64,000 nucleotides of DNA from the NCBI RefSeq assembly GCF_009914755.1, contig NC_060932.1; one strand, 5' to 3'. Numbering within the stretch: the stretch's first letter is position 1; every line of letters begins with the position of its first letter. The position numbers were made by a program, and so were the translations under genes. The notes below the pieces were generated by a model. The model was not told the DNA's origin and did not search any database. It saw only the letters and a list, made by a program, of their open reading frames with translations. This DNA is from the human T2T-CHM13v2.0 reference genome, Homo sapiens. Shown here one piece after another: positions 15,743 to 40,672 of this stretch.

Positions 15743-16029
15743 TTTTTTTTGAGATGGAGTCTTGCTCTATTGCCCAGGCTGGAGTAGAGTGGGGTGATCT
15801 CGGCTCACTGAAATCTCCACCTCCCAGGTTCAAGTGATTCTCCTGCCTCAGCCTCCTGGGTAGCTGGGATTACAGGTGCACGCCACCACACCCAGCTAAT
15901 TTTTGTATTTTTGGTAGAGACAAGGTTTCACCATGTTGGTCAGGCTGTTCTCCAACTCCTGACCTTGTGATCCACCTGCCTCGGCCTCTCAAAGTGCTGG
16001 GATTACAGCTGTGAGCCACATACATGGCC
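15743..16029 (-). mobile_element. AluS
   Basis: Full antisense Alu dimer after a T tract. Confidence 0.92.
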
Positions 16030-16055
16030 AGTTCTTTTTTAGGTTGTTTCCTCAC

Positions 16056-16246
16056 ATGCACTGCTGATCAGTCCTCTTTTATATACTCGAAGAGATTCCT
16101 CCGTAGGTGTCCAGAATTCTCTCTCTGCGTGGCTCTCTCCGCCATACTCTGCCTGGCAAACTCTGGCTACCTTGGCTCCCAGCTCTGTCTTTAACCCACT
16201 GATCCCTGTCTGGGTTCCACCTCTGCTGCATTCAGAGAGGTGGGTT
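16056..16246 (-). CDS. Exon 7 of putative spliced ORF; spans an MLT2 LTR end and old L1-like sequence
   Basis: Acceptor ctgtttctttgaAG, donor GTgagg. 191 nt open: (L)[10 protein letters not shown]...KRGLISSA. Confidence 0.5.
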
Positions 16247-16880
16247 CTTCAAAGAAACAGAACCAATAGGAGATACAGATAGATAGATATGTATATAGAT
16301 AGATGTGTGTGTGTGTGTATATATATATATGTATGTATAAAATATACATGAGATATAATTATATGAACATATATGAGATATAAAAGATACGTTATATATA
16401 ATACATAGAAGAGATATTTTGTGTATTTATTTATTTTTGTGAAGATTTATTATTTATTATGAAGAATAAACTCATACAGTTAAGGTGGCTGAAAACTCCC
16501 ATGCCTGAAAGCTAGGTCTGCAAGCTGGAGAGCTAGGAAAGCCTCTGGTGTAATTCTAGTCTGAGTCTAAAGGCCCAAGAACCAGGGAAGCTGAGATAGT
16601 AAATTTCAGTGCAAGGGCAAGAGGAAACTGATGCCCCAGCTTAAGCAGGCAGGCAGGAAAGTGCTGAATCTTCACTTCCTCCCCTTTTTGATCTATTCAG
16701 ACCTTCAGTGGATTGAATAATGCCTGCTCACACTGGAGAGAGCAATCTACTTTACCAAATTCATCAATTCACATGTTAATCTAATCCTGAACACCCTCAA
16801 AGATATACAAGGAAATAATGTTTAATCTGGGCACCCTGTGATCCAGGCAAGTTTACATATCATGTACATGAACCACTATA
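16227..16880 (-). mobile_element. MLT2-type (ERVL) LTR with internal (GATA)/(TG)/(TA) simple repeat
   Basis: 'gggttcttcaaagaaacagaaccaatagga' start; also 'tctgcaagctggaga', 'gcaatctactttac' and 'aataatgtttaatctgggcaccc'. Confidence 0.75.
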
Positions 16881-17761
16881 CCCTCCCTGCTCCACAGCCT
16901 GGAAATGTGCTCCAGGGTGTCATCAGGGTAATCATAGGACTCAACTAATTCATCACCTCCCTTCTCTGGGGATCACCGCCCTCCCTTGCTTGATGCATAA
17001 CACCTTGAGACCTGTGCTTGCACACATTAATATTTTATCAAGATTCTCAGTTGTTTCAGGTGAAAGAGTAAACCCAGTCCTTGTTACTCCAGCTTGGACA
17101 GAAGCAAAGCCTCCAAAGTCTACTTTTGATATAATCACATTTGGCCATATTTTGCTTCATAATGTGTGCATTTTAACTAAGGAATGTATTCTCATATAAG
17201 AGATTTCATTTTTCACACTCAGTCCACCAGGAATTTGTTTCTATGCATGATGTGAAGTAGATTTCTAAGTTTGCGAGTAGGTTTTGTGTCAAATAGAACT
17301 TGACAACACTCTAGTTTTGCCTCTATAATTGCCATGGGTCTCTGGGAGCTTCCTTTCTTTGATTCTGTGTTCCTATTGGTAAAAAGGGCACAATAACACC
17401 CACCTTATGGTATAATTATTTAAATAAATGATATAGATCCCTTCCTGTGTACAGTGCCAGGTATAAAGTAGATGCTCAAAAATGCTGGTTTCTTTTTTGA
17501 GCTCATCCCAACACTAGGAGTTATTTTCTGTAACTTGTCTATCGTGTGATAATCTGCTAATGTTTGGCTTCTTAATAAACCATGTGGTCCATCTGTTTTG
17601 CTTTCTGAGATATTTCCGGAACAAAGAGTGGGGCCAGCCCATAGTAGGCTCTCTGTAAATATTTGTTGAGTTGCTGAATGAGTGCCTCCTCTTCCCACCT
17701 CACAGCATTCATCTCTGCCAGCTAATGTATGCCTTGATGATTAATGATTATCAAGAACAGC

Positions 17762-18153
17762 TGCCGTGGTTTGAATGTGTCCCCTCCAAAATTCAGAGGT
17801 TGCCAATGTGGTTGTATTAAGAGGTGGGAGGCCTTTAAGAGGTGATTAGGCCATGCCGGCTCCTCCCTCGTGAATGAGAAGAAGGCTCTTACAAAAGAAG
17901 CTTCATTCAGTGTTTGGCTCTCTTGTCCTCCTGCTTTCTGCCATATAAGGTTATACAGCATTTCTCACTTCCAGAGGATGTAGCAACAAGGCATCATCTC
18001 AGAAGCAGACAGCAGCCTTTGCCAGACATGGAATCTGCTGGCACCTTGATCTTGGACTTCCCAGCCTCCAGGACTGTGAGAAATAAATTTCTTTTTTTTA
18101 TAAATTGCCCATTCTCAAGTATTTTGTTACAGCAGCAAAAACAGACAAAGACA
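17762..18153 (+). mobile_element. MST-family MaLR solo LTR
   Basis: tgccgtggtttgaatgtgtcccctccaaaattca...cagacaaagaca, with 5-bp TSD ACAGC (17757-17761 / 18154-18158). Confidence 0.9.
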
Positions 18154-19117
18154 ACAGCCTAAGGTATAAGGTTGATATAATTTTATGCACAATTTTTGAA
18201 GGAATAAACAAAGGCCAAAGTTATTTTTTTTAATTGTTCAAAATTTGTAACAGTGAAAATACCTTAAGCCCTAGTAACTACTACCCCACAGGAACCATCA
18301 GGGATATTTGAACTAAATATCAACTGGACACATAGTCCTCCCCAGTTCTAGCACCCAGTAGAGTAGGAAGCCAAATTACCTTGCCAAGGTCTTGCTGTAG
18401 GCTGAGAAGAGGTAGGTGTGGTTTTTAGGGAAAGAGTCATGTGTTCATTGTGGCTGGAGAGTGAGTGGGGGGCAATGGGAATGCATGGAGGAAATATGAG
18501 TGGCTAAAACGTTTTCCTTCCTTCTACAGTGCACAATCTACGAATGTGTCTGAGCCCTTGCTGCCACATCTAAACAAGTCAACTCCAAATAAGGAGTAAC
18601 TTAGAAATAATGGAGAACACGGAAATGAAGCCTAAAGAATGATAAATGTTTCTTCCTAGGTTAAATATCAGCTAAGAAGCAATAATGAAATCCTGCCTAT
18701 CTCTCCAACACTGGCACAGAGAAAGAAACTTATCAAAAAAAAAAAAAAAAGGTGGGGGAGAGAGAAAGGAAAAACTAACATCCACAAAGCTCTGTGGGTT
18801 TGGATTGGCTGTAGCAAGAATCATTAATTTTCCCTAGGAATGATCAAGAGTGTCATTAGGACCCATTAAACATCACCTGACAGGGAATGGGGAGTACCAG
18901 GAGGAGGATGCACTCTCTCCCTCCCTCCACGATTGCATAATCAATGCAGACGACTCCAACTTGCTCCCAGAATCTTCTCCCCCAATTAGCACCAGCCTGG
19001 AGCCTCTCACATTCCATCTTTTACCTCTTCTTTCTCTTTTTTTTTTTTTTTTTTTTTTGAGACAGAGTTTCGCTCTTTTCTTGATTCTTTCCAACGGGGA
19101 TAGAAACCTATCCTCAC

Positions 19118-19176
19118 AGTGGAAGGAGCCCTATATTTTCCAGGACAGCCGCTTTGGAATCCGAAAGGCTGCTGGA
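19118..19176 (-). CDS. Exon 6 of putative spliced ORF
   Basis: Acceptor cttttgcctccccAG, donor GTgagg. 59 nt: SSSLSDSKAAVLENIGLLP. Confidence 0.5.
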
Positions 19177-20060
19177 CTGGGGAGGCAAAAGAGGCATTGA
19201 AGAGCCTTTTTGTTCATGTATTTTGTCAACAAATTATTTTGGACTTGGATGTTAGGGTTGCCTCACACATGATTCCTGCCCTCTCTCTCTTCTTTTATTC
19301 TCTTCCCTCTAAGTCCCTCCTTCCCACCCACCCCTGCCTGCCTCACTGACAGATCCCCTCTCTCCCTCAGCCTTCTCCTGTCTCCCCATCTTATTTTCTG
19401 TCCCTTTAGATGAGGTCACCCTGACTGGATGAAGGACACGGGGCTCAGAAGAGGTCAGACATTAGCACTGCTATAACTGCAGTGCTACCGAAACTGGGCA
19501 AACCCATCCATCACCAGCTCCACTACTCCATTAGGCCTCCCATGAAATATGCCCTGCTCTGAATCGCACAGCCATACATCTCCCGGTCTAGACACCTTCC
19601 TGTTGTATGAAGATCAATGCTGCTCGGTTATGCATCATGTGTCATGCAGTAGCCCTCACTCTAATAACCGTGTCTATTCTCTAGTCTGCAGTATAAATTA
19701 TGGCACTGGGAAAGTACTATATTATTCAGCAACCTTGGTCACTAATGGATTATTGGGTTTATTGGTTGATAATGTGAGCTCCCTTTCCTCCTTCTATCTT
19801 TCTTTTTTCTTTTTCTCATTTTTGGCTGAATCTCACTCTTATTTTATTTATTTCTCTCTATTTTTATTTTATTTGGTTCAAGTTTGAGTGATGGCTGCTT
19901 TAGGCTTCTGTCAACATACTCCTGCATCAAACCCCTAAAATGATGATGCTCTAAAATAAGCCCAATTAGGAAGACTTCTCTGTGATCCCCTATTAGATAA
20001 TGGACTGAGTCCAGTGAAGGTTGTTTGGCCTTCAATTTCCCTGGGTTTTGGTTGAGGTGC

Positions 20061-20359
<299 letters not shown>

Positions 20360-20744
20360 TAAGGTGCCTTTTAATTGAAGGGCACTTTTAGGGAACCAAA
20401 TGCAGTTTGGGCCCCCAGCAACCTCTAGCGTCCCATGGGGCTCAGTCTCATGAAACCCCTTTCTGCATTCCTTCTCTCCACTTGTCTTTCTATCCTTTGA
20501 CGACTTATATTCAGTGCTGCTGGACGCTGATAATTGTGATTGCAACACTGGCTCTCAGTTTTTCCTTTCTGTAAAATGGGTGAGAGAGGGAGAGCGCACA
20601 TCAACAGAAAGAAGGAAAAATTAAATTATAGTAAAGAACTTGGAATGTAAAAGTTGAACTTTTGGGGCATGTTAACTCTAGGAAAAGTTGGATTATCTGA
20701 CATTCTGAAACCACTGAAATTTTATATTAAAAATTACAAACTTA

Positions 20745-20912
20745 ATTAGCCAGGCATGGTGGTGCATGCCTGTAGTCCCAGCTACTCAGGAGGCTGGGGG
20801 AGGAGAATTGCTTGAGCCCAGGAGTTCAAGGTTGCAGTGAGTTATGACTGAGCCACTGCACTCCAGTCTGGGTGACAGAGCTAGACCCTGTCTCAAACGA
20901 AAAGAAAAAAAA
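20745..20912 (+). mobile_element. Alu right monomer (AluJ/FRAM-like)
   Basis: aattagccaggcatggtggtgcatgcctgtagtcccagc...gaccctgtctc followed by an A-rich tail. Confidence 0.85.
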
Positions 20913-21474
20913 GACAAACTTTTATGCAGAAATAAGACTTTAATACTAGAACTGTGCAAAGATAGGCTAGGCTTCCATGAGAAAGAACTCTGTCACCAGA
21001 ATACAAGCCAAGGATGGCCATTTAGAAATGGAGCAAAACTCAAACAACTGAGGAAAACTTAGGCAAGATGCCATTTCAAGTCTTGTCCAATCTTTAGGTT
21101 CCATATTTTATCATACATATGACAAATAGCACTATTTTGATACATTTTTAAGGAAAAATTATTTTAAATACTAATAAGAATCAGGGGAGATTAGATCAAC
21201 CATCAAGGTTAGGAACCCTCATTTTTGCAGCCTGCTACTTCCTATCTGGGCAAGAGCGAAACCAGCACAGTCGATGCCCCTTCTGGGTACTTTCTCTCCT
21301 TATGTTTTTCTTGGTTTTGCTTATGAACATAGCAGCAGTGCAGAGTTAAGTCTCAGGTGTCCCTGAACAGAGAAGAAACAAAGGGAGCCGATTCTAAGCT
21401 CTCCATCTGATCCTCAAAACTTGGAAAATTGACTCATTTATTTCCCAAATTCACCTGAAACCTACTGGCAAAAC

Positions 21475-22003
21475 TGTATTAGTCAGGGTTCTCTAGAGGG
21501 ACAGACCCAACAGGATAGATGTGTCTATAAAGGGGATTTTACTGAGGAGTATCAACTCACATGATCACAAGGTGAAGTCCCACAATAGGCTGTCTGCAAG
21601 CTGAGGAGCAAGGAAGCCAGTCCGAGTCCCAAAACCTCAAAAGTAGAGAAGCCGACAGTGCAGCCTTCAATCTGAGGCCAAAGGCCTGAGAGTCCCTGGC
21701 AAACCACTGATGTAAGTCCAAGAGTCCAAAACTGAAGAACTTGGAGTCCAATGTTCGATGGCAGGAAGCATCCAGCACTGGAGAAAGATGAAGGATGAAA
21801 GACTCAGCCAGTCTAGCCCCTCCACATTCTTCTGCCTGCTTTTATTCTAGCTGAGCTGACAGCTGATTGAGGGTGGGTCTGCCTCTCCTAGTCCACTGAC
21901 TCAAATGGTAATCTCCTTTGGCAACACCCTCACAGACACACCCAGGAACCATATTTTGCATCCTTCAATCCAATCAAGTTGACAGTCAATATTAACCATC
22001 ACA
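21475..22003 (-). mobile_element. MLT2A (HERV-L) solo LTR; hosts exon 5 of the putative ORF
   Basis: TG...CA termini with 5-bp TSD AAAAC (21470-21474 / 22004-22008). Same family as 3324-3751. Confidence 0.93.
21561..21777 (-). CDS. Exon 5 of putative spliced ORF (exonised MLT2A LTR)
   Basis: Acceptor ttcatctttctccAG, strong donor GTgagt. 217 nt open: (S)AGCFLPSNIG...VLGLGLASLLLSLQTAYCGTSPCDH. Confidence 0.55.
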
Positions 22004-22164
22004 AAAACCATTCTCTGACTCCATGGTTTCCTCCAGACCCCCGAGTCCTCATACACTGGGGTTGGAGGAGCCCTGCACAGGAGAGCCAGATGGAGCCCTG
22101 CTACTGCTTCTGGGCCTCAGGGTCTGAGTGTGTTTGATGTTTATATTTTTGGCCCTTTTAAATA

Positions 22165-23180
22165 AAATTAATATACTTTATTTTTTAGAGCACTTCTAAG
22201 TTTATAGAAAATTTGAGCAAAAGTGCAGAGAATTCCCTTGTTCCCCCCCACCCCCCGCCACCTGCCTCCTCCACAGTTTCTGTTATTAATGTCTAACATT
22301 AGTGTAGTACATTCATTACAATTGATGAGCCAATATTGATATATTATTATCAAGTAAAGTGAGTAGTTGCTATTAGATTTCACTCTGCATGTGCCTTCTA
22401 TGGGTTTTGACAAATGTGTAATAACATGTATCCAGTTATAGCATCCTACGGAATAGCTTCACTGGCCTAAAAATCCTCTGTGGTCTGTCTATTCATTCCT
22501 TTCCATCCACAGAACCCTGGCAACCACTGAGCTTTTTACTGTCTTTATAGCAGACAGCATATATATATATATTTTTTCAGAATGTCACTTTTTTTCTCCA
22601 GAATGTCATTTTCCGGCATGTCATATCCTTGGATCCTTGCATGTCATCACACAGCATGTAGCCTTTTCAGACAGGCTTCTTTCATCTAGTAAAATGCATT
22701 TAAGTTTCCATGTCTTTTCATGGCTTGATAGCTCATTTCTTTTTATCATTGAATAATATTCCATTGTCTGGATGTACCACAGTTTGTCCATTCACCTACT
22801 GAAACACCTTAGTTGCTTCCAAGTTTTGGCAATGATGAACAAAGCTACTATAAACATCATGTGCAGGTTTTTGCGTGGACATAAATTTTCATTTCATCTG
22901 GGTAAATACCAAGAAGCATGATTGCTGGATCATATGGTAAGAGTATGTTTAGTTTTTTAAGAAACTGCCAAACAATCTTCCTAGGTGTCTGTACCATTTT
23001 GCATTCTCACCAGCAATGAATGAGAGTTCCTGTAGCTCCACATCCTTACCAGTATTTGGTGTTGTCAGTTTTTGGATTTTAGCCATTCTAATAGGCGTGT
23101 AGTGGTATCTCATTGTGGTCTTAATTTGCAGTTCCCTATGATGCCTGATGCTGAGCATTTTTTTCCTATGCATACTTGCC
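22165..23180 (-). mobile_element. L1MC/MD-type 3' end
   Basis: 'tactttattttttagagca..aaaatttgagc' terminus. ORF 22949-23182 (ELQIKTTMRYHYTPIRMAKI) is the L1 ORF2 C-terminus. Confidence 0.85.
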
Positions 23181-23227
23181 ATTGTTGTTGCTCATTTTAT
23201 TATCATTTTCCAGGTTGCTACCCACTT

Positions 23228-23870
23228 TGTAACCAGGCCCTAAGACTTCCAATATCTCTAGAGAGCTAGTAAATGAAGCTACCCTGGGCAAAGGTGGTCA
23301 TTTCAAGGGAGGATGTTGGTAGAAGTGGGGAAAGAAGAGGAAAAGTAAGATGTGTGAGATGACTAAAATGGCCAGGACGATTTCTAATGCTTTTTCCTTT
23401 TGCTTTTTAGTGCCATGACAATCCTGCTAGGTAGATGTTGCTATCACTATTTTATAATTAAGCAAGAGAAATTTCGAGTTAAGTAGTTTACCTAAATTAT
23501 ATAATACGTAAGTATGAGAGCTGGGTTTCAGACTCTTGCTTGTCTTATTCTAAAGTCCATCCACTTTCCACTCTGATATGCGCTTTTTCAGGAGTAAGAG
23601 GCCCAAGAAAGGAACACACTCTCAGCCCTGGCTTCCTTCTTCCCGACTTCTTTCAGGGTCCCAGAGGTGAAAGAGCCAAAAGGAGAAGGAGGCAGATATC
23701 TGGAGCAGAGCCTGGAACACACAGGGGATAAGAGATTCTGTGCTGGAATGGGGAGAGGGAAGGCAAGAAATCTTGTAACCAGAGCTCGTACAAGCTACAA
23801 ACAATCTTGCCGCTTCTCTATTTCATTGCTGTACAATGAACCCCAAGATCTTAGCCTGAAAGGCTCTGTG
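23228..23870 (+). repeat. Left arm of a ~643-bp inverted repeat (contains a MIR-like segment at ~23410-23570)
   Basis: Reverse complement of 25097-25740 along its whole length, roughly 88-90% identical by eye. Confidence 0.96.
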
Positions 23871-24104
23871 CTGAGATGAGGGGGTAAACCAAGAAAGAGC
23901 CTGGCTTTGCCCCAAGCTCCCTCCCAGGAAAAGTTGATGCTCAGATGGAATCTATACCAGCCTCCATGGCCCAGGATACAGGCACATTCTCTCTCCTCCC
24001 GCCTCTTATCAGCCCTGAAGTCCCTGGTGAAAAAATATCCCATTGCCTAAGGAAGCCTCAGTGAATGCTGTCTTCCCATCTGCATACAGAGAGTCTGGAA
24101 GTAC

Positions 24105-24238
24105 CTTTGGAGGGCTTCTGGGAACAGGAAGCCAGCCTGTTGGACTGGTTCAGGAACAGACCACAGCAAGGAATGACGCTGACTCCTCATGGACCAGCTC
24201 CCCACTTGCTCTGCTGCCCCACTGAGCCTGGAGCTCAT
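24105..24238 (-). CDS. Exon 4 of putative spliced ORF (inside the inverted-repeat spacer)
   Basis: Acceptor cagcAG (weak pyrimidine tract), donor AG|GTac. 134 nt: MSSRLSGAAEQ...PEALQ. Confidence 0.5.
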
Positions 24239-24635
24239 CTGCTGGTTGTTTGAACATGACAGTCATCTGTCTCCCTAATTAGAAGATGTCAGATTTCTCC
24301 AATCTGTACTTGAGATTTCCTGAGGAATCACAGAGGTGCCCACCTGGAGGAAGCACCTCAGTATCTGAGGAGGGCAAAAGAGGCTCCAAGGCCCCATGTT
24401 CCAGTGACCTCCCCCCATGCATTCCAGAAGTTTGGCCATATAGCCCTTTGGCCCTTCTGTGCCTCAGTTTCCTGTCCTCTAAAAGACAAGAAAGTGGTGC
24501 TCCCTAATTCCCTCCCCACCCTCCCACCAGAACCAAATGTGTCACACTGCTTGCACTTCTCCGAGGTGACAAACAATTTCAGTGGAAACTGCTTCCTATA
24601 GGGGAGCAATTTCTGTTTACATATGTGGTGCCCAC

Positions 24636-24782
24636 CCCCTGCAGAAATGCTGGCTGCCCGTGGCCTGGCTGCATTATCAGGAGAATGTCACAAGCCACGG
24701 CTTCCATCCTCTGCCAAGGGAACAGATTTGCTGCCTGCTTTGAGGACAAATCCTTTAGCAGAGGTAAGCCCTGGCATGGGTC
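24636..24782 (-). CDS. Exon 3 of putative spliced ORF (inside the inverted-repeat spacer)
   Basis: Strong acceptor ctctctcacttttctttttccctcatAG, donor GTgggc. 147 nt: DPCQGLPLLK...PAFLQG. Confidence 0.55.
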
Positions 24783-25096
24783 CTATGAGGGAAAAAGAAA
24801 AGTGAGAGAGAGATAAAAAAGCTGCCCCTAAGTCAAGGCCTGAGCAATTAAAGTAAAAACAACTTGGCTTTGGAGTGATGGGCCAATATGACGGCTCAAC
24901 ATTCTCTTTAATCTCTGCCCCAGAAGGAGGCACAGGAATGGACTCATGTTCTAGTAGAAGCAGAAATAGGAAAGAACTTGTGATCAAATGTCCCTGGTCC
25001 ACTGAAGCCACAAAATGAACTAAGCATCTAGGCATGAAATGGGTTTGCTGGTGAAGGTATAGTCAAAACCAGGACAAAACTGAGACAGCAAGTAGA

Positions 25097-25740
25097 CACA
25101 GAGCCTTTCAGGCTAAGATCTTGGGGTTCATTGTACAGAGATGCAATAGAAAAGTGGCAAGATTGCTTGGTAGCTTGTACAAGCTCTGGCTACAAGATTT
25201 CTTGCCTTCCCACTCCCCATTCCAGCACAGAATCTCTTGTCCCTAGTGTGTTCCAAGCTCTGCCCCGGATAACTGCCCCCTTTGCCTTCTGGCCCTTTCA
25301 TCTCTGGGACCCTGAAAGAAATCGAGAAGAAGGAAGGCAGGGCTGAGAGGGTGTTCCTTTCTCTGGCCTCTTACTCCTGGAAAAGCGCATGTCAGAGTGG
25401 AAAGTAGATGGACTTTAGAATAAGACAAGCAAGAGTCTGAAACCCAACTCTCGTACTTACACATTATGTAATTTAGGTAAGCTACTTAACTCGAACTTTC
25501 TATTGCTCATTTATAAAATAGTGATAGCAACATCTACCTAGCAGGATTGTCATGGAACTAAAAAGGAAAAGGAAAAAGCATTAAAAAATGTCCTGGCTGT
25601 TTTAGGCATCTCACACATCTTACTTTTCCTCTTTTTTCCCCACTTCTACCAACATCCTCCCTTGGGATAACCACCTTTGCCCAGGGTACTTTCATTTGCT
25701 AGCTCTCTGGATATACTTGAAGTCTTGGGGCCTGGTTACA
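25097..25740 (-). repeat. Right arm of the ~643-bp inverted repeat
   Basis: cacagagcctttcaggctaagatcttggggttcattgtacag...gaagtcttggggcctggttaca mirrors 23228-23870. Confidence 0.96.
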
Positions 25741-26102
25741 TGCTCATTCCACCTGTCTTCAAGCTAGCCAGAGCTGTCATTTTCCCTCAGAACCTCTCTG
25801 GATGACTAAGAGGAGAAAGGGGTGTGGCTATCAGGGGTCTGCAAACCCAGTTTGAAAATTCCTGGGCAGCTTATATCTCCAGGAGCCAGACAGCAGCTAG
25901 GATCTGGGCAATTGGCTGATAGGAGCTGCTGGCTGCCCCTCCCTCTAAGACACAGCCTTGGCCCCACCTCTGATATGCCAATCAGATAGGAGCCCTGTTA
26001 CAAGGCACAGTTCAACTGACTTTTATGTCCCATCAAATTCAAGTTCATTTGTCTTCCCCCTTTACCACCCTATCCCCAAACCTCACCCTCAGGTGTATCA
26101 AT

Positions 26103-26105
<3 letters not shown>

Positions 26106-26135
<30 letters not shown>
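26106..26135. repeat. (CA)n microsatellite
   Basis: About 15 perfect AC units. Confidence 0.95.
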
Positions 26136-26137
<2 letters not shown>

Positions 26138-29100
26138 ACCTTAGAAGAAGACGGGTGAAGTTTTAGGAAACCAAGGGCTTGGCCAGAGAATGGGAGTTTA
26201 TAAATATGTTTTATATGACTTGAGAATGAGCTAGCCTCACTTAATTAGGGGCATACCAAATTTCCTCAGCAGGGAGCTAGACCTGGGAAGAATGTGAAGG
26301 AACACTGGGAGACTGAAATGAGGGCATAAAGTCCTACTGGAAGGTGCATGATTTTTAGTATATTTCCAAAAGAAGGAAGCAAATTCATCTACAAAATGAG
26401 CCACTTACCTTCAACCTGACAGGCTGTACTATTACCTTGATTGTGTGGTCCATCCAGCTCCACTTTAGCCCACAACATGGCATGCATGATACGTAAGAGA
26501 TATTGACTACAACGTTGGAAACCGAAGAAAAATCACTCACCTCTGCTCCCTTGGCCCCCTTCTAGAGCATGTTTTCCAGACTCTGCACACATTTTCAGTT
26601 TATGTCTACATCAGAAAGCCTGGGCAAAATTATTCTCTGTGCACACCAGGTTCAAAACACTGATTCCAAATGTTCCTGGCTTAGTTCTGGGTCAGAACAT
26701 TTTATGGTCAATTGGGCTTCTTTCTCCTTACAAATTCCCACACCTAAAAGTGTCCCAGTGGTATTTCTGCCATGTAGACTCAGTCTCAAGTAAAATGAAT
26801 CGGGTCCCTGGATAGATGAAAATAGCACTGGGTTAAGTTACTCCAATACCCTCAAAAGTAAATAAATAAATATAATTAAATAATATTTGGGAGATCCTAA
26901 GACTAGAATTTTTTTTACAAAACTGTTCCATACATAAGCAGAATATGCATGTAAAGAAAATGTGGGAGAGGAATCTATTCCAGAAATCTATGCATGATAA
27001 TAAAGGCAGGTATTGAAGGAAAAAAATCTATTCTGGCAACCTGAGGTTACAAAATGAACCAGGAATCTAAACTGGAAATGTAATCACCTCTGAGTGGTAT
27101 ATGTTTTACAAGCAAATACTTATTCTTGTCATCCATTCCTGTCCCTCAAATTGAGGCATACTTGTATTCTGGAAAGCTGGAATCCCGGAAGCTTTGAAAC
27201 AAGGCTGACTTGGACTCTAATCCCAAATCTGATAGGTACTACTTGTGCTGCCTTGGGCAAAAACCTTGAAGATTTCCAGTTTCCACAATTGGGCAACAAG
27301 GATACTAACATCTAAGATTAGGCTATAATTGCTTAATACAAGGAAACTGTTATGATGATAATAACAATAATAACATTGTAACATCATCATCATCATTAAT
27401 AGCACCATTGTTAATTATAAGACAGTTATTCAAATAAAATAAAGGTCACAATTGAGGTTTTAAGGAAGTGAAGGAGAAGATAGAATCTGTTCCACAATTT
27501 TACACTTTCCTCAGGTCACTCTGATCTCTTGAAAATAAATTTCATGATTGGAGAAAAGAGCACCTCATAATGAATGTTAATAAACAGGACTGCAACTTCA
27601 AAATCCACATAAATTAGACCAAAAAATGCAAAAAGACATGGAAGTACAGAGGATCTCCCTTAGTCAATGCTGCCAAAAATGCTATTATGTATTCACCCAA
27701 CTGGAGTTCCTTCTAACAAACTGCCACTGAGCATATGGCTACCTTGGGCATTTTTTCATTATCCCAGAGTGTGTCTGCAGTCCCATGTCGGTAAACTCCA
27801 TCTGTATCTCTGTCAATGGAAGAAATTTCCATCAGGAAATATCAGCAGGCATCAGGGAAAGACCTTTCCAATTTACTGAGATCGAAGGAAGTAACTGCAG
27901 GGTTCCCCTCTCTCGCCTCCCTTTTTCTCCAACTCCAGCCAAAAAATGTCTTGTTTTCTTTCCCAAAGATTATCCCATCGCCCACCCCTGCCTGCTCAGG
28001 GGGAGTCTCTGGATGGTCCTTGGGCACATGGTGCTGCACGTGATGTACTAGTTGTATTCTGGGTCACCCAGCCCCTTCAACTCACCACTTAATAGGAATA
28101 AAGAGAAGAGCAGGCGAAAATGGACCTCCCACTTCTCTCAGATGCTGCACCAAGAGAATGCAAAGAGAAACAGCTCTGGGTGCTTTGTTGCTGTTGCTCT
28201 AGTTATTTTAATCTCTTCATGCTGCACAGCACCCATCAGGGACCAAGTTGCAGGCAGGTTTTAACATCAAAGGCAGTGATGAATGTAATGTACCCTTCTG
28301 GGCAGGGCAGGAGCCCTTGCTGGGCAGTGGGTTGGGTTGGGGGAAAGGAGGGTGCAGGGGTGAGGCAGGTAAGTGAGGGAAGCATGCACCAGTGATTAAA
28401 TGTGGGAGCAAGAGCATTAAAAAATGTCAGTCCCAGGCTCCCTTCTGTGTATCTCACAGCCTGACCATTACATCTCAGTTGCATATTGAATGTGACCCTT
28501 ACATTCACAATGCTTCCCCGATATTTTTCACTGTAGACTTAGACAACCATCATGTCAATGTACTAGTTTAAAAGTTTAATATTGACTATGCTGCTTTTAG
28601 AAAATAGACTCAGGGTCAGAACAGCCCCATTTCTCTATTCTCTTCCCTCTCTATACCCCAAATAAGAGCAGATCAATGGCAGAGATGAAATAGATTGCAT
28701 ATTGACATTCCTGGGGATAATTTCTCCATATACAAATATGTCAATTTATCTCATGTATTTATTTTTTAATTTACTTACATGTAGATTTATATGAAGGATA
28801 TACTTAAGCCTCCAATTACCCATGTCAACATTATAGCTCTCCATCGCCCTGAGAGGAATGAACTGGGAAAAACGTTCACTATTTTGAAAATCCCATTAAT
28901 AACACAGGCCCCATTTGGGTGTTATTTGCAATGAGAGTCTCATTGAAAAAAGAACCTCCAACCAATTATCTTTGGACTTTATAGAACTTTGGACTTCCTA
29001 GAACCTATGAAGTTCATAAAAACTAATTGTAATTCTTCCTGAGTCCAAAACAATGGAAAGAAATACTTGGAGTAGGATTTTACAAGTTTATCTACTTAAA

Positions 29101-29654
29101 ACAAAACAAAACAAAACAAAAATGGAGCACTGGGAAAATGTTAGCCAATTACAGTATGCATTTGTGTATTCATACCCATAAATATCCACCAGCAGAGGAC
29201 GTCACAGGTCTAGCCCTCTGCCATGAATGTCTAAGTTCCTACCACGCATCTCAGGCCCATACACTGGAGAGAAGGGGAGGGGGAAACCAAGCCAAGCCCA
29301 GCAACGGAAGACACAGCACACTCTCATCCCAGCCTTCATAGACCCCTTTCTTACAGTACATCAGAAGTCACTAGTAAAATTAAAATTCTTTCTCAACAAG
29401 ATATGCTATATTCTCACCTTCAGTTGGATATTCAGAGTGAAAACTAGAATAACAATTCACCATTGCCCTGGCCCAAAGCACATCCAATCTTTTTCCCCCA
29501 ACTCCCATATCATTTTGGCAAAGTATCATAAAACTGCTACCAAAGCCGAATCTATTTCTATAGCTAGCTATCCATCTACATATCTTCATTGCCTACAAAA
29601 TAGTAAATATAAATGCTTTTGCATTTTTATTTGTTCTAAACCTACCCTCTTTTT

Positions 29655-29978
<324 letters not shown>

Positions 29979-30629
29979 AATCCTACCCTCTTTTTAAGGT
30001 CCAGCTCTCTCATTTTGGAAATAACTTCTTCCTCTGAACAAGTGCAGTGCTCACTGTTTATATCTCTAATTATTCTTATCTCTTTCCATCTCATGATACA
30101 TTCACTTATATTCATGTCTCATTTCTCAAAGGGAAAATATTCCATTTCTTGAGTATAAAATCCATAGCTGTTCCTTCTCTGTACTTCTACAACACCTACT
30201 TTTCTTTAACATTTAGAAGGCCCCCAATAAATGTTGTTTGTATCAGTGAACAAATAAATAACTTTCAATTATGCTAAATAAATGCAAGGTATCATTTATA
30301 ATATAGAAAAATGCATGTTCTATCTACGCAGGTGGATGTAAAATGACAACGTGACTCTAAAAAATAGAAAAAACTTGGCCTGGGCATGCACGGAAAAACA
30401 AATATAAGGGGCTCAACAGGAACAAACTGCAAAATCCCAAGCTCTCTTCTATCTGCAGCTGTCCCTTCTCTTGAAATTACTTCTTGCCACAGTGATATAG
30501 GACTCGCACTGCTCATTGGGATACACAATCCATCTTCAGGAGCCCATAGTCACAGGAAGAAGAGAAGAGGAAAAAAATTCCTAAGCACATTTCACCCATT
30601 GGTTTTGATCCTCAGCCAAGGCCGTCCAC

Positions 30630-30708
30630 CTGCAAAAATTCCCCAACTATCACATTTCTACTGCTTTGGCTGATAACGAAGATAATTGTTTCATCCACTT
30701 TGTCAAAG
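30630..30708 (-). CDS. Exon 2 of putative spliced ORF
   Basis: Acceptor ctcttttcatttcAG, donor CAG|GTggac. 79 nt: (G)FDKVDETIIFVISQSSRNVIVGEFLQ. Confidence 0.5.
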
Positions 30709-30719
30709 CTGAAATGAAA

Positions 30720-31060
30720 AGAGGGCAAAGCAAAATGATGCCATCACAAATCACCAGGCTGAGACAGCAAAAGAGGGACAAGATAGCAACTTCATTAAGG
30801 GTTATGTATTGTGCCATTAAGTTGGCAGGGGGGTCACCTTTTCTGTCACACCCGGCCTCTGTGATGCATTGCCAGCTCTTCTTTCCAATAAAATTAAACG
30901 GAGATGTAAAACTGATTAGGGCCATGTTTGCTTCAGCCTGTGGCAAAGGGAATGGTACAGGGAATAATTGATATAAGATTGCAACTGATGCATAATGACA
31001 GCAATTTCTCTTCCTGGTCATTTCATTGCTGACCTTGCCCATTAAAATAAGCTCAGCTGC
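30720..31060. promoter_or_regulatory. Candidate conserved non-coding or enhancer element
   Basis: Repeat-free and dense in homeodomain-type TAAT/ATTA cores (cttcattaag, gccattaagt, ctgattagg, aataattgat, gcataatgac, cccattaaaa). Conservation is inferred, not measured. Confidence 0.45.
30852..30925 (-). CDS. Exon 1 (coding part) of putative 325-aa spliced ORF
   Basis: ATG in a strong Kozak context (gcaaacATGG). Reads MALISFTSPFNFIGKKSWQCITEA; donor GG|GTgtga; 143-nt intron 1. Confidence 0.5.
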
Positions 31061-31735
31061 CTTGGAGAAAGAGACACTTCATTTCCCATCACCCTGTGGC
31101 CCCATGGCATCTCCCATTTCCCCCAATCACCAGCCTTCACCAAAACAACATAGCTAGAAATGCTGCAAGCTAGAGATTTGGAGAAGCAGCTGGTTCACAT
31201 GGATATGCATTGCAGATCCTTCATGCCACTGATAGCATGAACTCCTTGACTCCCCAAATGGTGGCTTCAGACAATTCTATGCTTCACTAGTTTTTAAATC
31301 CTGCCATGCTGAACATCAGGTTATTGGCCCGTTTGGTCTGAGCCTCAGACTCACCACATGAGGACCTGTCTGTGTATTCTGTCATTGCTGAGGTATGGAA
31401 GCTACTGTAAGCATAGAAATGACTGACTTTATCCTCACAATAACAAATCATGTCTTCTAATGCTTTATGAACTCAACAATTTAGACAGTCTCCATCCAAA
31501 GCGTACCCATTATTCAATCAACAAATATTCATTAGAGGTCTATTAGGTACCAAGCACTGTGCTAAACATTGACAATAGACAGTTATGTCCCTGCCTTCAT
31601 GGGGCTCACAGTTGAGTGGCATTTTCCACTGGAATAATATGGATGGCTCATGTGTGTTGAATGTTTATTATGTGCAAAGCACTATTCTATGCAATTTACA
31701 TACATTAACTCATGTAATCTTCATAGTACCAATAA

Positions 31736-32152
<417 letters not shown>

Positions 32153-35100
32153 AAGAACCGTTATTTCAGATGCCATGAGCTGAAGCCAGGAACTAAACGT
32201 GAAAAAAAATATTTTATTAATTTTTTTTGTTTTTCTCTTAATTCATTCCCCAGCCTGGTCAAGTCACTGATATATTTTATCCAGCCTTCAAGAAGACAGA
32301 GTATGTATTCATCAAAGGGAATTCATGCTAGAATCCTGTACTTTCCTATGGGTCAGGACTGCCAACAACAACAACAACAACAAAAGTCATGTATATTCCA
32401 GTTAATAAACATTTAATTTCATATAATATAAAATCATATACTGTTTTCTTTCTCTTTATTTCACTTGATGTCTGAGATTGGTGTTTCCATGGTATATCCA
32501 GATAAATGAGCAAAGCTTATGGGTTCATCTCACAAATGTCTAATTTCAGTGTTGAAATTAGACCCCATGATGTTGGGGGTCAAGATCATGGCAAACAGCA
32601 GTGAAAAAAATCTGGCCAACAAGGCATCCAGAAACAACTCCTGTCACCCGTATTCTCAACCTAGCTGAAGGGACGTGGACTATATGACTCCACGATTCTC
32701 TTGCCTTTGTCGGGAATCCCAGCAGTTGGGAACACGCAGATAAATATTAAATATGACCTAGTCGTCACAGTGACCTCTGTGGCAGTGAAGGGAGATCTAT
32801 TACTTCAGCCTCTCTAACAGAAGCTTGCAACCTTGATCTGTTTGTCCGCCTGTCTGTCCAGCTGTCTGTCTCTGTCCCACCACTTTCTAGGCTGTGATTG
32901 GGTCCAGGGATTACAGTGGCTCTGGGTGGGAAGCTTGTAAATGACAAGTAACAGATGCTCTGCCAAAAAAGTGATCATACCAGAAATGGACTAAGTTAAA
33001 CCAGACTACATCCACCCACCCCATCTCACCATGACCCCACACCTCAGGAAGGAGGAACGCCTTAGAAGGCTTTGTATAAACGAAGACAGGGCTGTGCACA
33101 CTTCCCACTCAATGACTCATGCATCATGGAATTAGAGGCCCCAACCATGCACTCATAAACAGCAAATGGAAAACAAACACACTGAGCACGCCCACAAGTG
33201 TCGTTTCCTTCCTCCTCCCCGCCTCACCTACACACTCCCACCATCCAGGCCCCAGGCCTCTGTGCTGCAAAGTCCAACCGGGGGGACTCTGTGAATGCTG
33301 GGATGATTAACGCAAGCTGGCTGCAAGAAGGAGACCCCCAGGATGAGGGATGCCACTGGATCTGAGATTGCCCTGGGAGTCAGGATTTTTCCCACACAGG
33401 GAGATCATCAGAGAGAAACCTCCTCTTTGCGTCAACTACAATCACAGACAACTTTTTCATTATATGACACATAGACATGGTATGCTTGCAGCCATAATGA
33501 CATATAATCCCTAAAACATTTTTATGAGGTGAGTGGTATTAGCCTCACTTTACAGGAAATGAATGAAACCTAGGCTCAGAGATAGGCTGGAGGCCACACA
33601 GCACTGAGGGATGATCTGCCTCCAGAAGAAAAGAATTTCCACTACTCCATGGGAGAAAAGGCAAATTTGTCTGAGTGCAAACTCACATCATATCAGCCTC
33701 TCTGACCCACTCAGGACTGCTTCCCAGTCAATGGTCAAGGAAACAGGCAGGAGCCTCCACCTCCTACATCTACCCCACGCCTGCCTTAAATATTCTCAGG
33801 AAGCCAAGAATTCACTTCCCTTCCCTCCACCCAGGCAGGCAGGGCCTATATTGGGCTGGAATGCGAAGGTAGCCAGGGAAACAGAGCCCATGGCTAGACG
33901 TTATCAAGGGCCTGCGGCCTGCATGGCTCCTTAAGAGAAACAGGATGGGTGGAAGATGTTCATTATTCAGATCCTCATTAACAAAATTATACTTACCTTG
34001 AACCTGCTCCTGCAGAAAACAGACTGGGATGGAGTCCATTGCCTCACCTTTCCCCAAGCAATGATGCTCAAATGGAGGTGGCAGGCCTCCTCTCTGTCTC
34101 ATTCCCCATCTCTCTATTCCAATCCCGCTCTTACTATGTGAATAAAAGATGGCCTCATCTAAAAAGAAAGAAAAGAACAAGCTTAGGGAAGAAAATATCT
34201 AAAATAAAAGGATTCATCCCAGCAAGAATACCTGGAAGCCTCATGGCTAGCAATGCTTTAAAGAAAAACAAACTTTTATTATTCAGTTAACAAATGAAAG
34301 CTTTAAGTCTTAGCAATGTACTGGCCAGGAGGGAATGTGAAGATGAAGAAGATACTTTGCTTGTCCTTAAAGAGTCCTACTGGGTGTTTCTCAGTGCCTT
34401 CCAGGGACAGTTGCTGCACACTCATCACACACTGACACGCGCCCTCTGCCTTGACTGTTAGAACTGGAGCCAGAAACACAAATATGTGGATTCTGGAACT
34501 GGAGTCAGAAAAAAATGTGGAATACAGAATTCTCACAAGGCCCCTTTTGGCGTTATTCTCTAAGCCAACATGGCACCAAATTCCTGGAAACTGCTCCAGA
34601 GTACCTTCTCCTACACCCTTACTTAATTTGCCAAAACCCTGTGGCACATCAGAATCTGCCATGGGGTTTTGCAGAGGCTGAGTAGTGGGCTGAACCCCCC
34701 ATTGCACTCTGACCAGATAGTACAGCCCCTTCTTCATCTATCAGTTAGACTCAGAAAGCCATCATGTTGAATTTGGAGGAACGGTTTTCCCCTGGCAAAA
34801 TAGAAACCACTTTTGAAAACCACTGAAGAGGTTATCTGAGCTATTTTCCAGCTCTGATATTTAGTGACATAGGATTGTTTTCTGTGATTAAAAGTCCACT
34901 TGTGTAGGGTCAGTGCTCACCGACAGATTTTCCCAAAACTCTCCTTACCTCCTGCAGGAGATTGTCATCATTGAAGGAAAATAGCAGAGCCAAGCCCCTC
35001 AGTTGCCCGGACCCATGTAACTGACAGTGGCTGACTCATTCAACAAATATTTACTGAGAACTGCAGCATGACAGCAGTGTGCCAGCTGTTGACTTCGTGA

Positions 35101-36621
35101 GAATTGAGAATCGGCTCCATGGAAACTCCCCACAGCCCGGGGCTTAACAGCACTTTAGGTCAGGTTGACCTGGTCTCCAGCCTGGGCTCATTGTCTGTGC
35201 AACCACTGAAGGTTGCTCACTCATTCTGAGCCTCAGTCTCCTTGTCGGTAAGAATAATGTTGTGAAGATCCATGACAGTCTTACTGAGTAGCGTAGTGAG
35301 TGTGAAAACACATAGCACATACTAAATGCTCAAAAAAATGTCATGATGACTACTGTCATAAAGTTCAGTTGCTTACTATCTCTCCCCAGAACTATCTCAA
35401 CTCTCTATAAACTGGTATCTCTGACTTCCGTTATCACCCTTCCCCTTCATCTTCTGATTGGGCCAGAGGGATGGCTCTTCATTCTTACTCATGCTTGAAG
35501 GCCAAATTCAAATGTCATCCCTTCTGCTAAGGCATTCTTAATTCTAAGACGCAAAATTAAACTTTGAGATTCCCAGTGCATACTTCTGTTTTTTCCGTTA
35601 TAGCATTTGATACATTATATACATTGATTTATGCAGCAAATATTTATTGAGTGTCTGCCAGGTGCCAAGCCTTGCTCTAATCCCCAGGGGATACATCAGA
35701 GACACCTAGACAATTGCTTGTTTGTGTCTCAGTCTCTGATCTCCCAGTCCCCACAGGGTGAGAAAGAAGGAAGCGGCATTCCTCGGCTTAGCTACATGTC
35801 TCAACCAATGTGTTCAACGCGAGTTTTCTCAAATGGGCAAGCGAATCTGATAGCTATACCTGTGGTCACTGGATCTGCAAGAGTGGATGTACAAAAGCTG
35901 CCTTCCTACTGTGGTTTGAGAATCCACAGGCGGCTGGAAAAACCTTGAGTTGCTTCTCACAACCCATGGATTGCGTCATCCCAGCCTTCAGCTCCACACC
36001 CTGCATCTGCGGCTAGGAACTGAGGCAGGAGAGAAAATCAGGGAAGAGAAAAGAAGGCACGGTAGAGGTTAACACAAGTTTTAAACTTTAAAATTTGATG
36101 AACGGCTAGCGGCCTATGGAGACCTACAGGAATCCTAAGTTAACATCAGGTGCACACACCTGGGGCCTTGTGTTTGGTCCAGCCACTTGGATCATGCCCA
36201 TGGACAAGCCCCTGGGAGAGACTGCAGCTCCAGACTCTTCCAAGAAGACATTAGCAAGGATTTATATTTCTGCTCCAGCCCCCTCTCACCTTCTGGCATT
36301 TGGAAAAGACGTCATAGGAGCCAGCCTGGCCACAGGGGAACAGCAGCAAAAGTGGGGGACAAACAGAACAAAGAGAGGTCAGCTGATGTGCAACAGCCCT
36401 CTCCCCAGAGGATTCCTCCTCTCACACTCCAATGCCATTTAAGGCAGAGCCAGGGAACAAAAGAATAACAGGGAATGAACTAAGTGGCTAAAATATTCCA
36501 ATCCCCAAATCTCATTATCAGCTTGTTGCATTGCTGGGACACCTGTGGTTAAAGGCAGAGAAGCTGATGCAGCATCTACAGGAAACATGAGGCCAGCACA
36601 GGTCATGAGTCAAAAGCTTGA

Positions 36622-36624
36622 GGT

Positions 36625-36660
<36 letters not shown>
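36622..36660. repeat. (TG)n microsatellite
   Basis: Near-perfect TG run. Confidence 0.95.
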
Positions 36661-40228: not shown

Positions 40229-40672
40229 ATATATATATCCACATATATATATAATATATATATCCACATATATATCATATACATCCACATATATATGATA
40301 TATATCATATACATCCACATATATATGATATATATCATATACATCCACATATATATGATATATATCATATACATCCACATATATATGATATATATCATAT
40401 ACATCCACATATATATGATATATATCATATACATCCACATATATATGATATATATCATATACATCCACATATATATGATATATATCATATACATCCACAT
40501 ATATATCATATATATCATATACATCCACATATATATGATATATATCATATACATCCACATATATATCATATATATCATATACATCCACATATATATCATA
40601 TATATCATATACATCCACATATATATCATATATATCATATATATCATATATATCATATATATCATATATGAT
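40229..40672. repeat. AT-rich 30-bp VNTR (atatat[g/c]atatatatcatatacatccacat)
   Basis: Eleven exact-length units at 40291-40620, with degenerate flanks and 9-bp atatatcat units at the 3' end. Confidence 0.96.

What the first reader, a model, noticed from the sequence alone, without database searches (positions are those of the whole stretch)
23228..25740. 643-bp local inverted repeat encloses exactly two exons: candidate circRNA, exon-loop-out or inversion switch
Seen: arms 23228-23870 and 25097-25740 are reverse complements (~88-90% by eye) around a 1226-bp spacer. They include perfect blocks of ~40 bp, one at the inner ends. The arms are not a pair of independent SINEs: they are mostly unique sequence, and both carry the same degenerate MIR-like segment, so this is a local inverted duplication. 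The spacer holds exactly exon 3 (24636-24782) and exon 4 (24105-24238) of the minus-strand ORF, with the arms ~310 and ~230 nt from their splice sites. Established: intronic inverted repeats flanking exons promote back-splicing and skipping and form ADAR substrates, and inverted repeats can mediate NAHR inversions and gene conversion. Inference: a transcript here would fold into a ~640-bp stem presenting exons 3+4. Back-splicing would give a 281-nt circle with junction CCCTCCAAAG|GACCCATGCC. Skipping or inverting the cassette frameshifts the ORF (281 is not a multiple of 3), so it could act as an on/off switch.
Basis: partly seen in the sequence, partly recalled or inferred. Interest (0 to 1): 0.85.

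Follow-up and report, generated by a model that had tools for sequence, protein, structure and literature searches.

The report
Old intergenic inverted duplication, no exons
A real 643-base inverted repeat around a 1.2-kb spacer in a human chromosome 8 gene desert is most likely an inert leftover of an old local duplication, and nothing supports the two "exons" it was said to enclose.

Summary
Arms 23228-23870 and 25097-25740 are reverse complements: 582 matches, 61 mismatches and 1 gap column, 90.4% identity, K2P 0.10. The spacer is 1226 bp. In the whole T2T-CHM13 genome the arm has only these two copies and the spacer one. So this is a local inverted duplication, not a SINE pair or a transposon family.

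The differences are spread evenly (chi-square P 0.78). The 45/42/40-bp perfect blocks are what random placement gives (P 0.45), so there is no gene-conversion signal.

If the region were transcribed, about 602 of 644 arm bases would pair.

The functional reading rests on two "exons" that have no support:
- RefSeq annotates no gene here.
- There is no Pfam match or paralogue.
- There is no CpG island in the 64 kb.
- AG|open frame|GT intervals of this size occur about 63 times per kb on each strand, and 119 times in the spacer alone.

Transcription, back-splicing, RNA editing and inversion polymorphism could not be tested here.

Verdict: an ordinary old (tens of millions of years) inverted duplication, probably inert. 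Interest is low.

The parts
23228..23870 (.). Left arm of the inverted duplication (643 nt)
   Evidence: 90.4% identity to the reverse complement of the right arm; only two copies in the genome.
25097..25740 (.). Right arm of the inverted duplication (644 nt, one extra base)
   Evidence: the sequence beyond 25740 is unique, and homology to the left arm stops at the arm end.
23871..25096 (.). Unique 1226-bp spacer with no internal symmetry
   Evidence: one copy in the genome. (no self-complementarity, no match to the arm).
23385..23600 (.). Its partner is at 25368-25583 (93% identical).
   Evidence: One search found only the two arm copies genome-wide. Identity as a MIR is not confirmed by any tool and rests on resemblance by eye and recall.
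24636..24782 (-). Claimed 'exon 3': a 49-codon open stretch with AG/GT at its ends. Judged a chance open frame.
   Evidence: geometry and frame. (no family, no paralogue). (119 such intervals in the spacer); acceptor-like tract is pyrimidine-rich (18 of 20, top 0.6% of AG sites), and the donor is ordinary (5 of 9 matches, 42% of GT sites score as well).
24105..24238 (-). Claimed 'exon 4': 134 nt, open. Judged a chance open frame.
   Evidence: the acceptor is ordinary (10 of 20 pyrimidines, 55% of AG sites score as well), and the donor matches 7 of 9 positions (top 4.4% of GT sites).

Best explanation
This is a small, old, local inverted duplication in intergenic DNA, a 'long inverted repeat' of unique sequence.

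A 643-bp stretch was copied in reverse orientation 1.2 kb away. Two origins fit (inferred): replication template switching or fold-back repair, or a ~1.9-kb inversion with a staggered break at one end whose fill-in leaves inverted copies at both ends.

The copied stretch already carried an old SINE-like piece. It lay 38-45 bp from the end of an already resident L1 fragment.

Since then the two copies have drifted apart neutrally to about 10% divergence. By recalled primate calibrations this is roughly 30-45 million years, so the repeat should be shared by apes and Old World monkeys.

Today it most likely does nothing:
- It is not in a known transcript.
- The 'exons' are chance open frames.
- The 1.2-kb spacer and 10% divergence make cruciform extrusion negligible and homologous flipping rare.

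Shown: the structure, its uniqueness, the even spread of differences, the lack of coding signal, and the folding potential. Inferred: the origin mechanism, the age, and the present inertness.
For: Structure and copy number:
- collinear over 643/644 nt with one indel, 90.4% identity.
- the arm has 2 copies in the genome and the spacer 1. The same search tool did recover dispersed repeats at 81-85% identity for the neighbouring L1 piece (9534 candidates, 40 scored). A transposon family of similar age would therefore have been seen.

Neutral drift:
- Differences per ~107-column bin are 12, 8, 10, 9, 14, 9 (chi-square P 0.78).
- The longest perfect run of 45 is reached in 45% of permutations.
- Ts:tv is 42:19. 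Six of the 62 differing columns are CpG transitions.
- CpG o/e of the unit is 0.13, typical of unconstrained methylated DNA.

No gene:
- The hub annotation lists none in the window.
- no protein family, no paralogue.
- exon-like intervals occur at chance frequency. They are in fact about twice as common as in mononucleotide shuffles everywhere in the window.
- no CpG island.
- no Rfam family in 21000-28000 above its gathering score.
- 0 papers mention the nearest lncRNA, LOC105379377.

Stability (passages read in PMC10164571): recombination induced by inverted repeats falls steeply once the spacer exceeds tens of bp and as the arms diverge.

Commonness of the class:
- PMC11794170 (passages) counts 627,791 inverted pairs of 200 bp or more at 80% or more identity in T2T-CHM13.
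- A second unique local inverted repeat lies in this same window at about 51300-51790.
Against: - No expression, editing, population or cross-species data could be consulted, so inertness is an inference from absence.
- The acceptor-like site of 'exon 3' is in the top 0.6% of AG sites for upstream pyrimidines. The donor-like site of 'exon 4' is in the top 4.4% of GT sites.
- RefSeq enhancers lie 7-10 kb away (32910-35227, hub annotation) and could drive unannotated RNA.
- The arms sit at the lower edge of inverted repeats known to mediate human inversions, not below it. Those are more than 90% identical and 654 bp to 24.2 kb in PMC6748972 (passages). Validated cases go down to 140 bp in PMC13629690 (passages).
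- The genome search scores only its best candidates and skips very common words, so 'two copies' is a lower bound in principle.
Confidence: 0.8

Rival explanations
1. The repeat lies inside an unannotated RNA polymerase II transcript (a lncRNA, or read-through or enhancer-associated RNA). The ~600-bp stem brings cryptic splice sites together to give a 281-nt circular RNA or a skipped form, or it simply makes a long double-stranded RNA that is edited by ADAR or diced.
For:: about 602 of 644 arm bases pair, with helices up to 61-62 bp, on either strand; one strong acceptor-like and one good donor-like site. It is established, by my recall, that complementary intronic repeats promote back-splicing and skipping. 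I saw only the listing and start of abstract of bioRxiv 10.1101/2021.02.28.433292. RefSeq enhancers lie within 10 kb (hub annotation).
Against: No gene is annotated in the window on either strand. There is no CpG island. The other two splice-like sites are ordinary. 119 equivalent 'exon' intervals lie in the spacer on each strand. No coding signal. One search found no Rfam family. The ORF on which the 'on/off' logic depends has no support.
Confidence: 0.08
2. The arms still recombine (NAHR), so the 1.2-kb spacer is a polymorphic or recurrently flipping inversion in humans or other primates.
For: Arm length and identity (643 bp, 90.4%) touch the lower bound of repeats reported to mediate human inversions (more than 90%, from 654 bp; validated cases with repeats from 140 bp). 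Just after the duplication the arms were identical, so early flips are plausible.
Against: The longest identical tract is now 45 bp. By my recall this is well below the uninterrupted identity that efficient mammalian homologous recombination needs. Differences are spread evenly and show no exchanged or converted tract. Nothing would be switched, since no gene spans it. PMC13629690 does not mention chr8 or 8p11 in its main text. Its supplementary table could not be seen.
Confidence: 0.04
3. The 2513-bp unit is one ancient DNA transposon with 643-bp terminal inverted repeats, not a local duplication.
For: The overall shape (long terminal inverted repeats around an internal region). About 10% arm divergence is similar to the age at which, by my recall, DNA transposons were last active in primates.
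Against: No other copy of the arm or the spacer exists in the genome. The same tool finds 81-85% identical copies of the neighbouring L1. The spacer has no transposase-like frame. No target-site duplication is evident at 23227/25741 in the sequence.
Confidence: 0.02
4. The palindrome is kept by selection (a structured DNA or RNA element), with arm-to-arm gene conversion slowing divergence, so it is older than 10% divergence suggests.
For: It has persisted intact, with a single 1-nt indel in 643 nt. The MIR-like part is 93% identical against 90% overall.
Against: There is no clustering of identity. Perfect runs and bin counts fit random placement. Mismatches disrupt the stem throughout, and one genome cannot show compensatory changes. 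CpG depletion is typical of neutral DNA.
Confidence: 0.04

Closest known systems
Long inverted repeats and small inverted duplications of the human genome (as catalogued by Lirex and IRF, and in the genome-wide inverted-pair maps of PMC11794170)
   Same: Two reverse-complementary copies on one chromosome, at least 200 bp and at least 80% identical, with an internal spacer. It meets the search criteria of PMC11794170 and Lirex's identity threshold of more than 85%.
   Different: Most catalogued pairs are Alu or other transposon pairs at a median identity of 84% and tens of Mb apart. This pair is unique sequence, adjacent (1.2 kb), and arose by one local event. At 643 bp it is below the 1 kb used to define segmental duplications. 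I could not confirm that this pair is listed. The one supplementary file held has no matching coordinate.
Intronic reverse-complementary matches that drive exon circularisation (for example inverted Alu pairs flanking circRNA exons)
   Same: Complementary arms flanking a 1.2-kb segment. The predicted stem is far longer than the 30-40 nt that, by my recall, suffices in minigene tests.
   Different: Those lie in introns of expressed genes around real exons. Here there is no annotated transcript and no supported exon.
Inverted repeats at the breakpoints of human polymorphic inversions (the HsInv set; PMC6748972, PMC3961182, PMC13629690)
   Same: Inverted copies bracketing a segment that could flip by non-allelic homologous recombination. 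Size and identity are near the lower bound reported.
   Different: Breakpoints in validated cases map to stretches of high identity, for example 782 bp at 99.9% in HsInv0209. Here the longest identical tract is 45 bp. No alternative orientation is known.
Inverted duplications left at inversion breakpoints by staggered breaks (described in Drosophila and Anopheles; recalled, and PMC1952172 seen only in a search listing)
   Same: An A - spacer - A' architecture with unique-sequence arms directly abutting the spacer.
   Different: That origin needs an outgroup with the uninverted, unduplicated state, which is not available here.

Membership tests
Local inverted duplication / long inverted repeat | Two reverse-complementary copies close together on one molecule, far beyond chance | tested here: met
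   643/644 nt, 90.4% identity; best of 23 inverted pairs in the window.
Local inverted duplication / long inverted repeat | The copies derive from each other, not from a dispersed repeat family | tested here: met
   only the two arm copies exist in the 3.1-Gb genome. One search shows that the tool does detect dispersed families at 81-85% identity.
Segmental duplication (classical definition) | At least 1 kb and at least 90% identity (definition quoted in PMC11794170) | tested here: not met
   Identity of 90.4% is met, but the length of 643 bp is below 1 kb.
circRNA-producing locus with flanking complementary repeats | Complementary sequences in the two flanks able to pair | tested here: met
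   602 of 644 bases pair across the arms in the minimum-free-energy fold.
circRNA-producing locus with flanking complementary repeats | The enclosed segment contains real exons of a transcribed gene | tested here: not met
   No gene is annotated (hub annotation). There is no coding or homology signal. Exon-like intervals occur at background frequency. Only indirect tests were possible, because no RNA data were available.
circRNA-producing locus with flanking complementary repeats | Back-splice junction reads | not testable with these tools
   No RNA-seq or circRNA database is on hand.
Inverted-repeat-mediated polymorphic inversion | Inverted repeats of sufficient length and identity at both breakpoints | tested here: inconclusive
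   At 643 bp and 90.4% it is at the lower edge of reported cases, but the longest identical tract is 45 bp.
Inverted-repeat-mediated polymorphic inversion | Both orientations observed among haplotypes or species | not testable with these tools
   Only one human assembly is searchable and there are no primate genomes.
DNA transposon with long terminal inverted repeats | Multiple related copies, target-site duplication, transposase remnant | tested here: not met
   (no other copy). (no matching flanks at 23227/25741). (no transposase-like frame).
MIR SINE (segment 23385-23600 and its partner) | Similarity to the MIR consensus | not testable with these tools
   No repeat library is held. Searches found no other copies, which is expected for very old SINEs.

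The most novel reading that the evidence does not exclude
The region is crossed by an unannotated, perhaps tissue-restricted, transcript, for example one driven from the enhancer cluster 7-10 kb away. The unique-sequence 600-bp hairpin then acts as a dedicated long-dsRNA locus in human cells. It would be an ADAR, MDA5 or Dicer substrate, or a driver of a 281-nt circle from cryptic exons. It would have been kept since the anthropoid ancestor.
Probability: 0.04. Interest if true: 0.6.

Novelty: new member of a known kind. Interest (0 to 1): 0.12.

Why it matters
As it stands it matters little. It is one more small inverted duplication in a gene desert.

It is a clean example of a unique-sequence inverted repeat whose age can be read from arm divergence. 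It could therefore serve as a marker for dating, or as a test case for how such duplications arise (template switch versus staggered-break inversion) once primate assemblies are compared.

It would become interesting only if RNA crosses it or if the spacer orientation varies. A 600-bp non-Alu double-stranded RNA, or the smallest and most diverged repeat pair still mediating inversion, would be noteworthy.

The check also shows that chaining AG...GT-bounded open frames by eye in intergenic human DNA yields 'exons' at about 63 per kb.

Tried and rejected
- Extension of homology beyond the arms, or hidden symmetry in the spacer: none.
- Other copies within the window: none for the left arm. The right arm has one 47-nt 72% match at E 0.044, taken as chance.
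- Confirming the MIR identity: not possible. No repeat library is held, and the genome search returned only the two arm copies.
- Rfam: only sub-threshold hits outside the unit. These are mir-562 at 22921-23017 (32.9 bits against a gathering score of 100) and mir-598 at 27351-27406 (24.1 bits against 69).
- Pfam on the claimed exons: one sub-threshold hit, Duc1_FFAT_like, at E 0.039.
- Pfam on 95 frames of 60 aa or more in 16000-33000: two sub-threshold hits, DUF7649 at 21152-21346 (E 7e-4) and ACAS_N at 24065-24250 on the + strand (E 3e-3). No hit reaches its cut-off.
- Protein search of 'exon 3' against the genome: the locus itself, plus one E 1.4 match.
- Gene-conversion signal from run lengths and bin counts: none.
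- Microhomology or target-site duplication at the four junctions: read by eye. Nothing convincing, and after about 10% divergence this is not informative.
- Looking the pair up in the catalogue of PMC11794170: the one supplementary file held has no matching coordinate. The full pair lists were not available.
- Looking for a chromosome 8 inversion in PMC13629690: no 'chr8' or '8p11' in its main text. Its supplements are not held.
- Paper search for LOC105379377: 0 papers.
- Transposon with long terminal repeats: rejected on copy number.
Full report
**1. The observation**

The window is human (T2T-CHM13 chr8:37,386,001-37,450,000, per the hub note).

The repeat finder on 22500-26500 reports two collinear inverted pairs:
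- 23228-23801 with 25167-25740 (574 nt, 90%)
- 23798-23870 with 25097-25169 (73 nt, 92%)

They form one repeat interrupted by a single 1-nt indel. A gapped global alignment of the left arm (643 nt) with the reverse complement of the right arm (644 nt) gives the following:
- 582 matches, 61 mismatches and 1 gap column, 90.4-90.5% identity
- 42 transitions and 19 transversions
- Kimura distance 0.1025

The spacer is 1226 bp.

It is the longest and most similar of the 23 inverted pairs of 100 nt or more within 10 kb in the window. The others are a self-complementary AT-rich tandem array, pairs in stretches that NCBI masks as repeats (71-85% complementary, probably SINE pairs by my recall), and one further small local repeat.

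**2. It is a local duplication, not a repeat family**

- Searched against the whole 3.1-Gb assembly, the left arm finds only itself and the right arm.
- The spacer finds only itself.
- The same tool, given the left flank, returned 40 scored matches out of 9534 candidates at 81-85% identity. These belong to a dispersed L1-type repeat that ends at about window 23182-23190. A transposon family of similar age would therefore have been detected.
- The right flank is unique.
- Homology does not extend beyond the arm ends. The spacer has no internal symmetry and no similarity to the arms. No part of the unit recurs in the window (one 47-nt match at E 0.044).

I could not confirm the MIR identity because no repeat library is held.

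**3. How the arms have evolved**

- The 62 differing columns are spread evenly along the arms: 12, 8, 10, 9, 14 and 9 per ~107 columns, chi-square P 0.78.
- The longest perfect run (45) is reached or exceeded in 45% of random placements of the same number of differences. The ~40-bp perfect blocks therefore carry no information about gene conversion.
- Six differences are CpG transitions. The unit's CpG observed/expected ratio is 0.13.

This is the picture of two copies drifting neutrally.

A pairwise distance of 0.10 lies between the human-Old World monkey and human-New World monkey genome distances as I recall them. I therefore infer an origin roughly 30-45 million years ago.

The neighbouring L1 copy differs from its relatives by 15-19%. 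That is about twice the arm-to-arm distance. The L1 was probably already in place, 38-45 bp from the breakpoint, when the duplication happened (inference).

**4. The 'exons'**

- AG before 24782 and 24238
- GT after 24636 and 24105
- open frames of 49 codons and of 44 codons plus 2 nt
- 281 nt in total
- 314 and 234 nt between these stretches and the arms

Nothing marks these as exons:
- RefSeq annotates no gene in the 64 kb (hub note).
- The peptides match no Pfam family above cut-off (one hit at E 0.039).
- The longer frame around 'exon 3' has no relative anywhere in the genome in six frames (the locus itself plus one E 1.4 match).
- Of 95 stop-to-stop frames of 60 aa or more between 16000 and 33000, none reaches a Pfam cut-off. 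Two have sub-threshold hits.
- Stop-to-stop frames of 49 aa or more number 541 in the window.
- Intervals of the form AG | 120-200 nt open in some frame | GT number 4008 on the plus strand and 4048 on the minus strand, about 63 per kb. There are 119 on each strand of the spacer alone. Five mononucleotide shuffles of the window give 1681-2274.
- No 500-nt stretch of the window meets CpG-island criteria.

By crude site measures, each claimed exon pairs one good site with one ordinary site:

| Site | Measure | Share of sites in the window scoring at least as well |
|---|---|---|
| 'exon 3' acceptor | 18 of 20 pyrimidines upstream | 0.6% of AG sites |
| 'exon 3' donor | 5 of 9 consensus positions | 42% of GT sites |
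| 'exon 4' acceptor | 10 of 20 pyrimidines upstream | 55% of AG sites |
| 'exon 4' donor | 7 of 9 consensus positions | 4.4% of GT sites |

The statement that the repeat 'encloses exactly two exons', and the frameshift-switch logic built on it, are therefore unsupported.

**5. What the structure could do if it were transcribed or single-stranded**

Folding the 2513-nt unit as RNA gives these values:
- MFE of -1452 kcal/mol for the plus strand and -1509 kcal/mol for the minus strand
- 602 of 644 arm bases paired with the other arm
- uninterrupted helices of up to 61-62 bp
- for comparison, -440 kcal/mol for the spacer alone and about -175 to -182 kcal/mol for each arm alone

Such a stem would be an ample substrate for back-splicing, ADAR or dsRNA sensors (established knowledge, recalled). 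All of this needs a transcript, for which there is no evidence here and none that I could look for. Rfam finds nothing in 21000-28000 above any gathering score.

At the DNA level, passages read in PMC10164571 state two things. Lengthening the spacer from 12 to 100 bp lowers recombination induced by inverted repeats about 300-fold. Divergence lowers it exponentially. With 1226 bp and 10% divergence this repeat should be stable in duplex DNA.

**6. Could it be an inversion switch?**

Not excluded, but unlikely.
- PMC6748972 (passages) reports 24 human inversions formed by recombination between more than 90% identical repeats of 654 bp to 24.2 kb.
- PMC13629690 (passages) includes validated cases with repeats down to 140 bp.
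- 643 bp at 90.4% sits at the lower edge of this range.
- Where breakpoints were refined, they fall in stretches of very high identity, for example 782 bp at 99.9% in HsInv0209 (PMC3961182). Here the longest identical tract is 45 bp.
- The even spread of differences shows no exchanged tract.
- With no gene across it, a flip would switch nothing known.

Flips soon after the duplication, when the arms were identical, are plausible but leave no trace in a single genome.

**7. Origin (inferred)**

Two standard routes give A-spacer-A'.
- A replication template switch or fold-back repair copies 643 bp in reverse.
- An inversion of arm plus spacer with a staggered break across the arm leaves a copy at each end after fill-in.

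The junction sequences show no convincing microhomology or target-site duplication. After this much divergence, that says little. An outgroup lacking one arm would decide between the two routes.

**8. Comparison with what is known, and novelty**

This is a member of a known and abundant class. PMC11794170 (passages) counts 627,791 inverted pairs of 200 bp or more at 80% or more identity in this same assembly. Most of those are transposon pairs far apart. Lirex and similar tools catalogue 'long inverted repeats' with over 85% identity.

This pair is less common in being unique sequence, adjacent, and from one event. The same window holds a second such case at about 51300-51790.

It is too short to count as a segmental duplication. 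I could not verify that this particular pair is listed anywhere. Its supplementary pair lists, and the supplements of PMC13629690, were not visible to me and may bear on this.

**9. Verdict**

The structural interpretation is supported, and the functional interpretation is not.

Best explanation: an inert inverted duplication some tens of millions of years old (confidence 0.8).

| Rival | Confidence |
|---|---|
| Transcribed hairpin or circRNA locus | 0.08 |
| Selected or converted palindrome | 0.04 |
| Still-flipping inversion | 0.04 |
| Transposon | 0.02 |

Interest is low (0.12).

Noticed in passing
window 51300-51790: A second unique-sequence local inverted repeat. The repeat finder reports arms 51366-51479 and 51613-51726 (114 nt, 82%, 133 nt between them). 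The genome search extends the match to about 140 nt at 80%. By eye the complementarity runs from about 51300 to 51788. No other copy exists in the genome. It is older than the main repeat. It is either another small inverted duplication or a very old hairpin-like mobile element whose family is no longer detectable.
   Followed up: partly
window 40268-40668: An AT-rich minisatellite: a 30-bp unit in 13.5 copies with 98% matches. It is partly self-complementary, so it shows up as many zero-spacer inverted pairs. It belongs to a dispersed family of similar arrays on many chromosomes (190 matches, 873 candidates, 70-83% identity, many on the X). Such AT-rich palindromic arrays could be fragile or length-variable, but this was not examined.
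   Followed up: partly
window ~22600-23190 (minus strand): An L1-type retrotransposon fragment. Its frames resemble the end of L1 ORF2 (by recall). It is 81-85% identical to thousands of copies and ends 38-45 bp before the left arm. A sub-threshold Rfam mir-562 match lies inside it at 22921-23017 (32.9 bits against 100).
   Followed up: partly
window 26106-26135 and 36623-36660: Dinucleotide microsatellites, (AC)15 perfect and (GT)19. The first lies 366 bp beyond the right arm.
   Followed up: no
window 27351-27406 (minus strand): A weak Rfam mir-598 match (24.1 bits against a gathering score of 69, E 0.16). Probably chance.
   Followed up: no
window 29227-29907 (plus strand): A 227-aa stop-to-stop open frame, among the longest in the window (maximum 233). 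It has no Pfam match. It overlaps a stretch masked as repeat (29594-29984) and a 25-bp tandem that looks like part of an Alu by my recall. Taken as chance.
   Followed up: no
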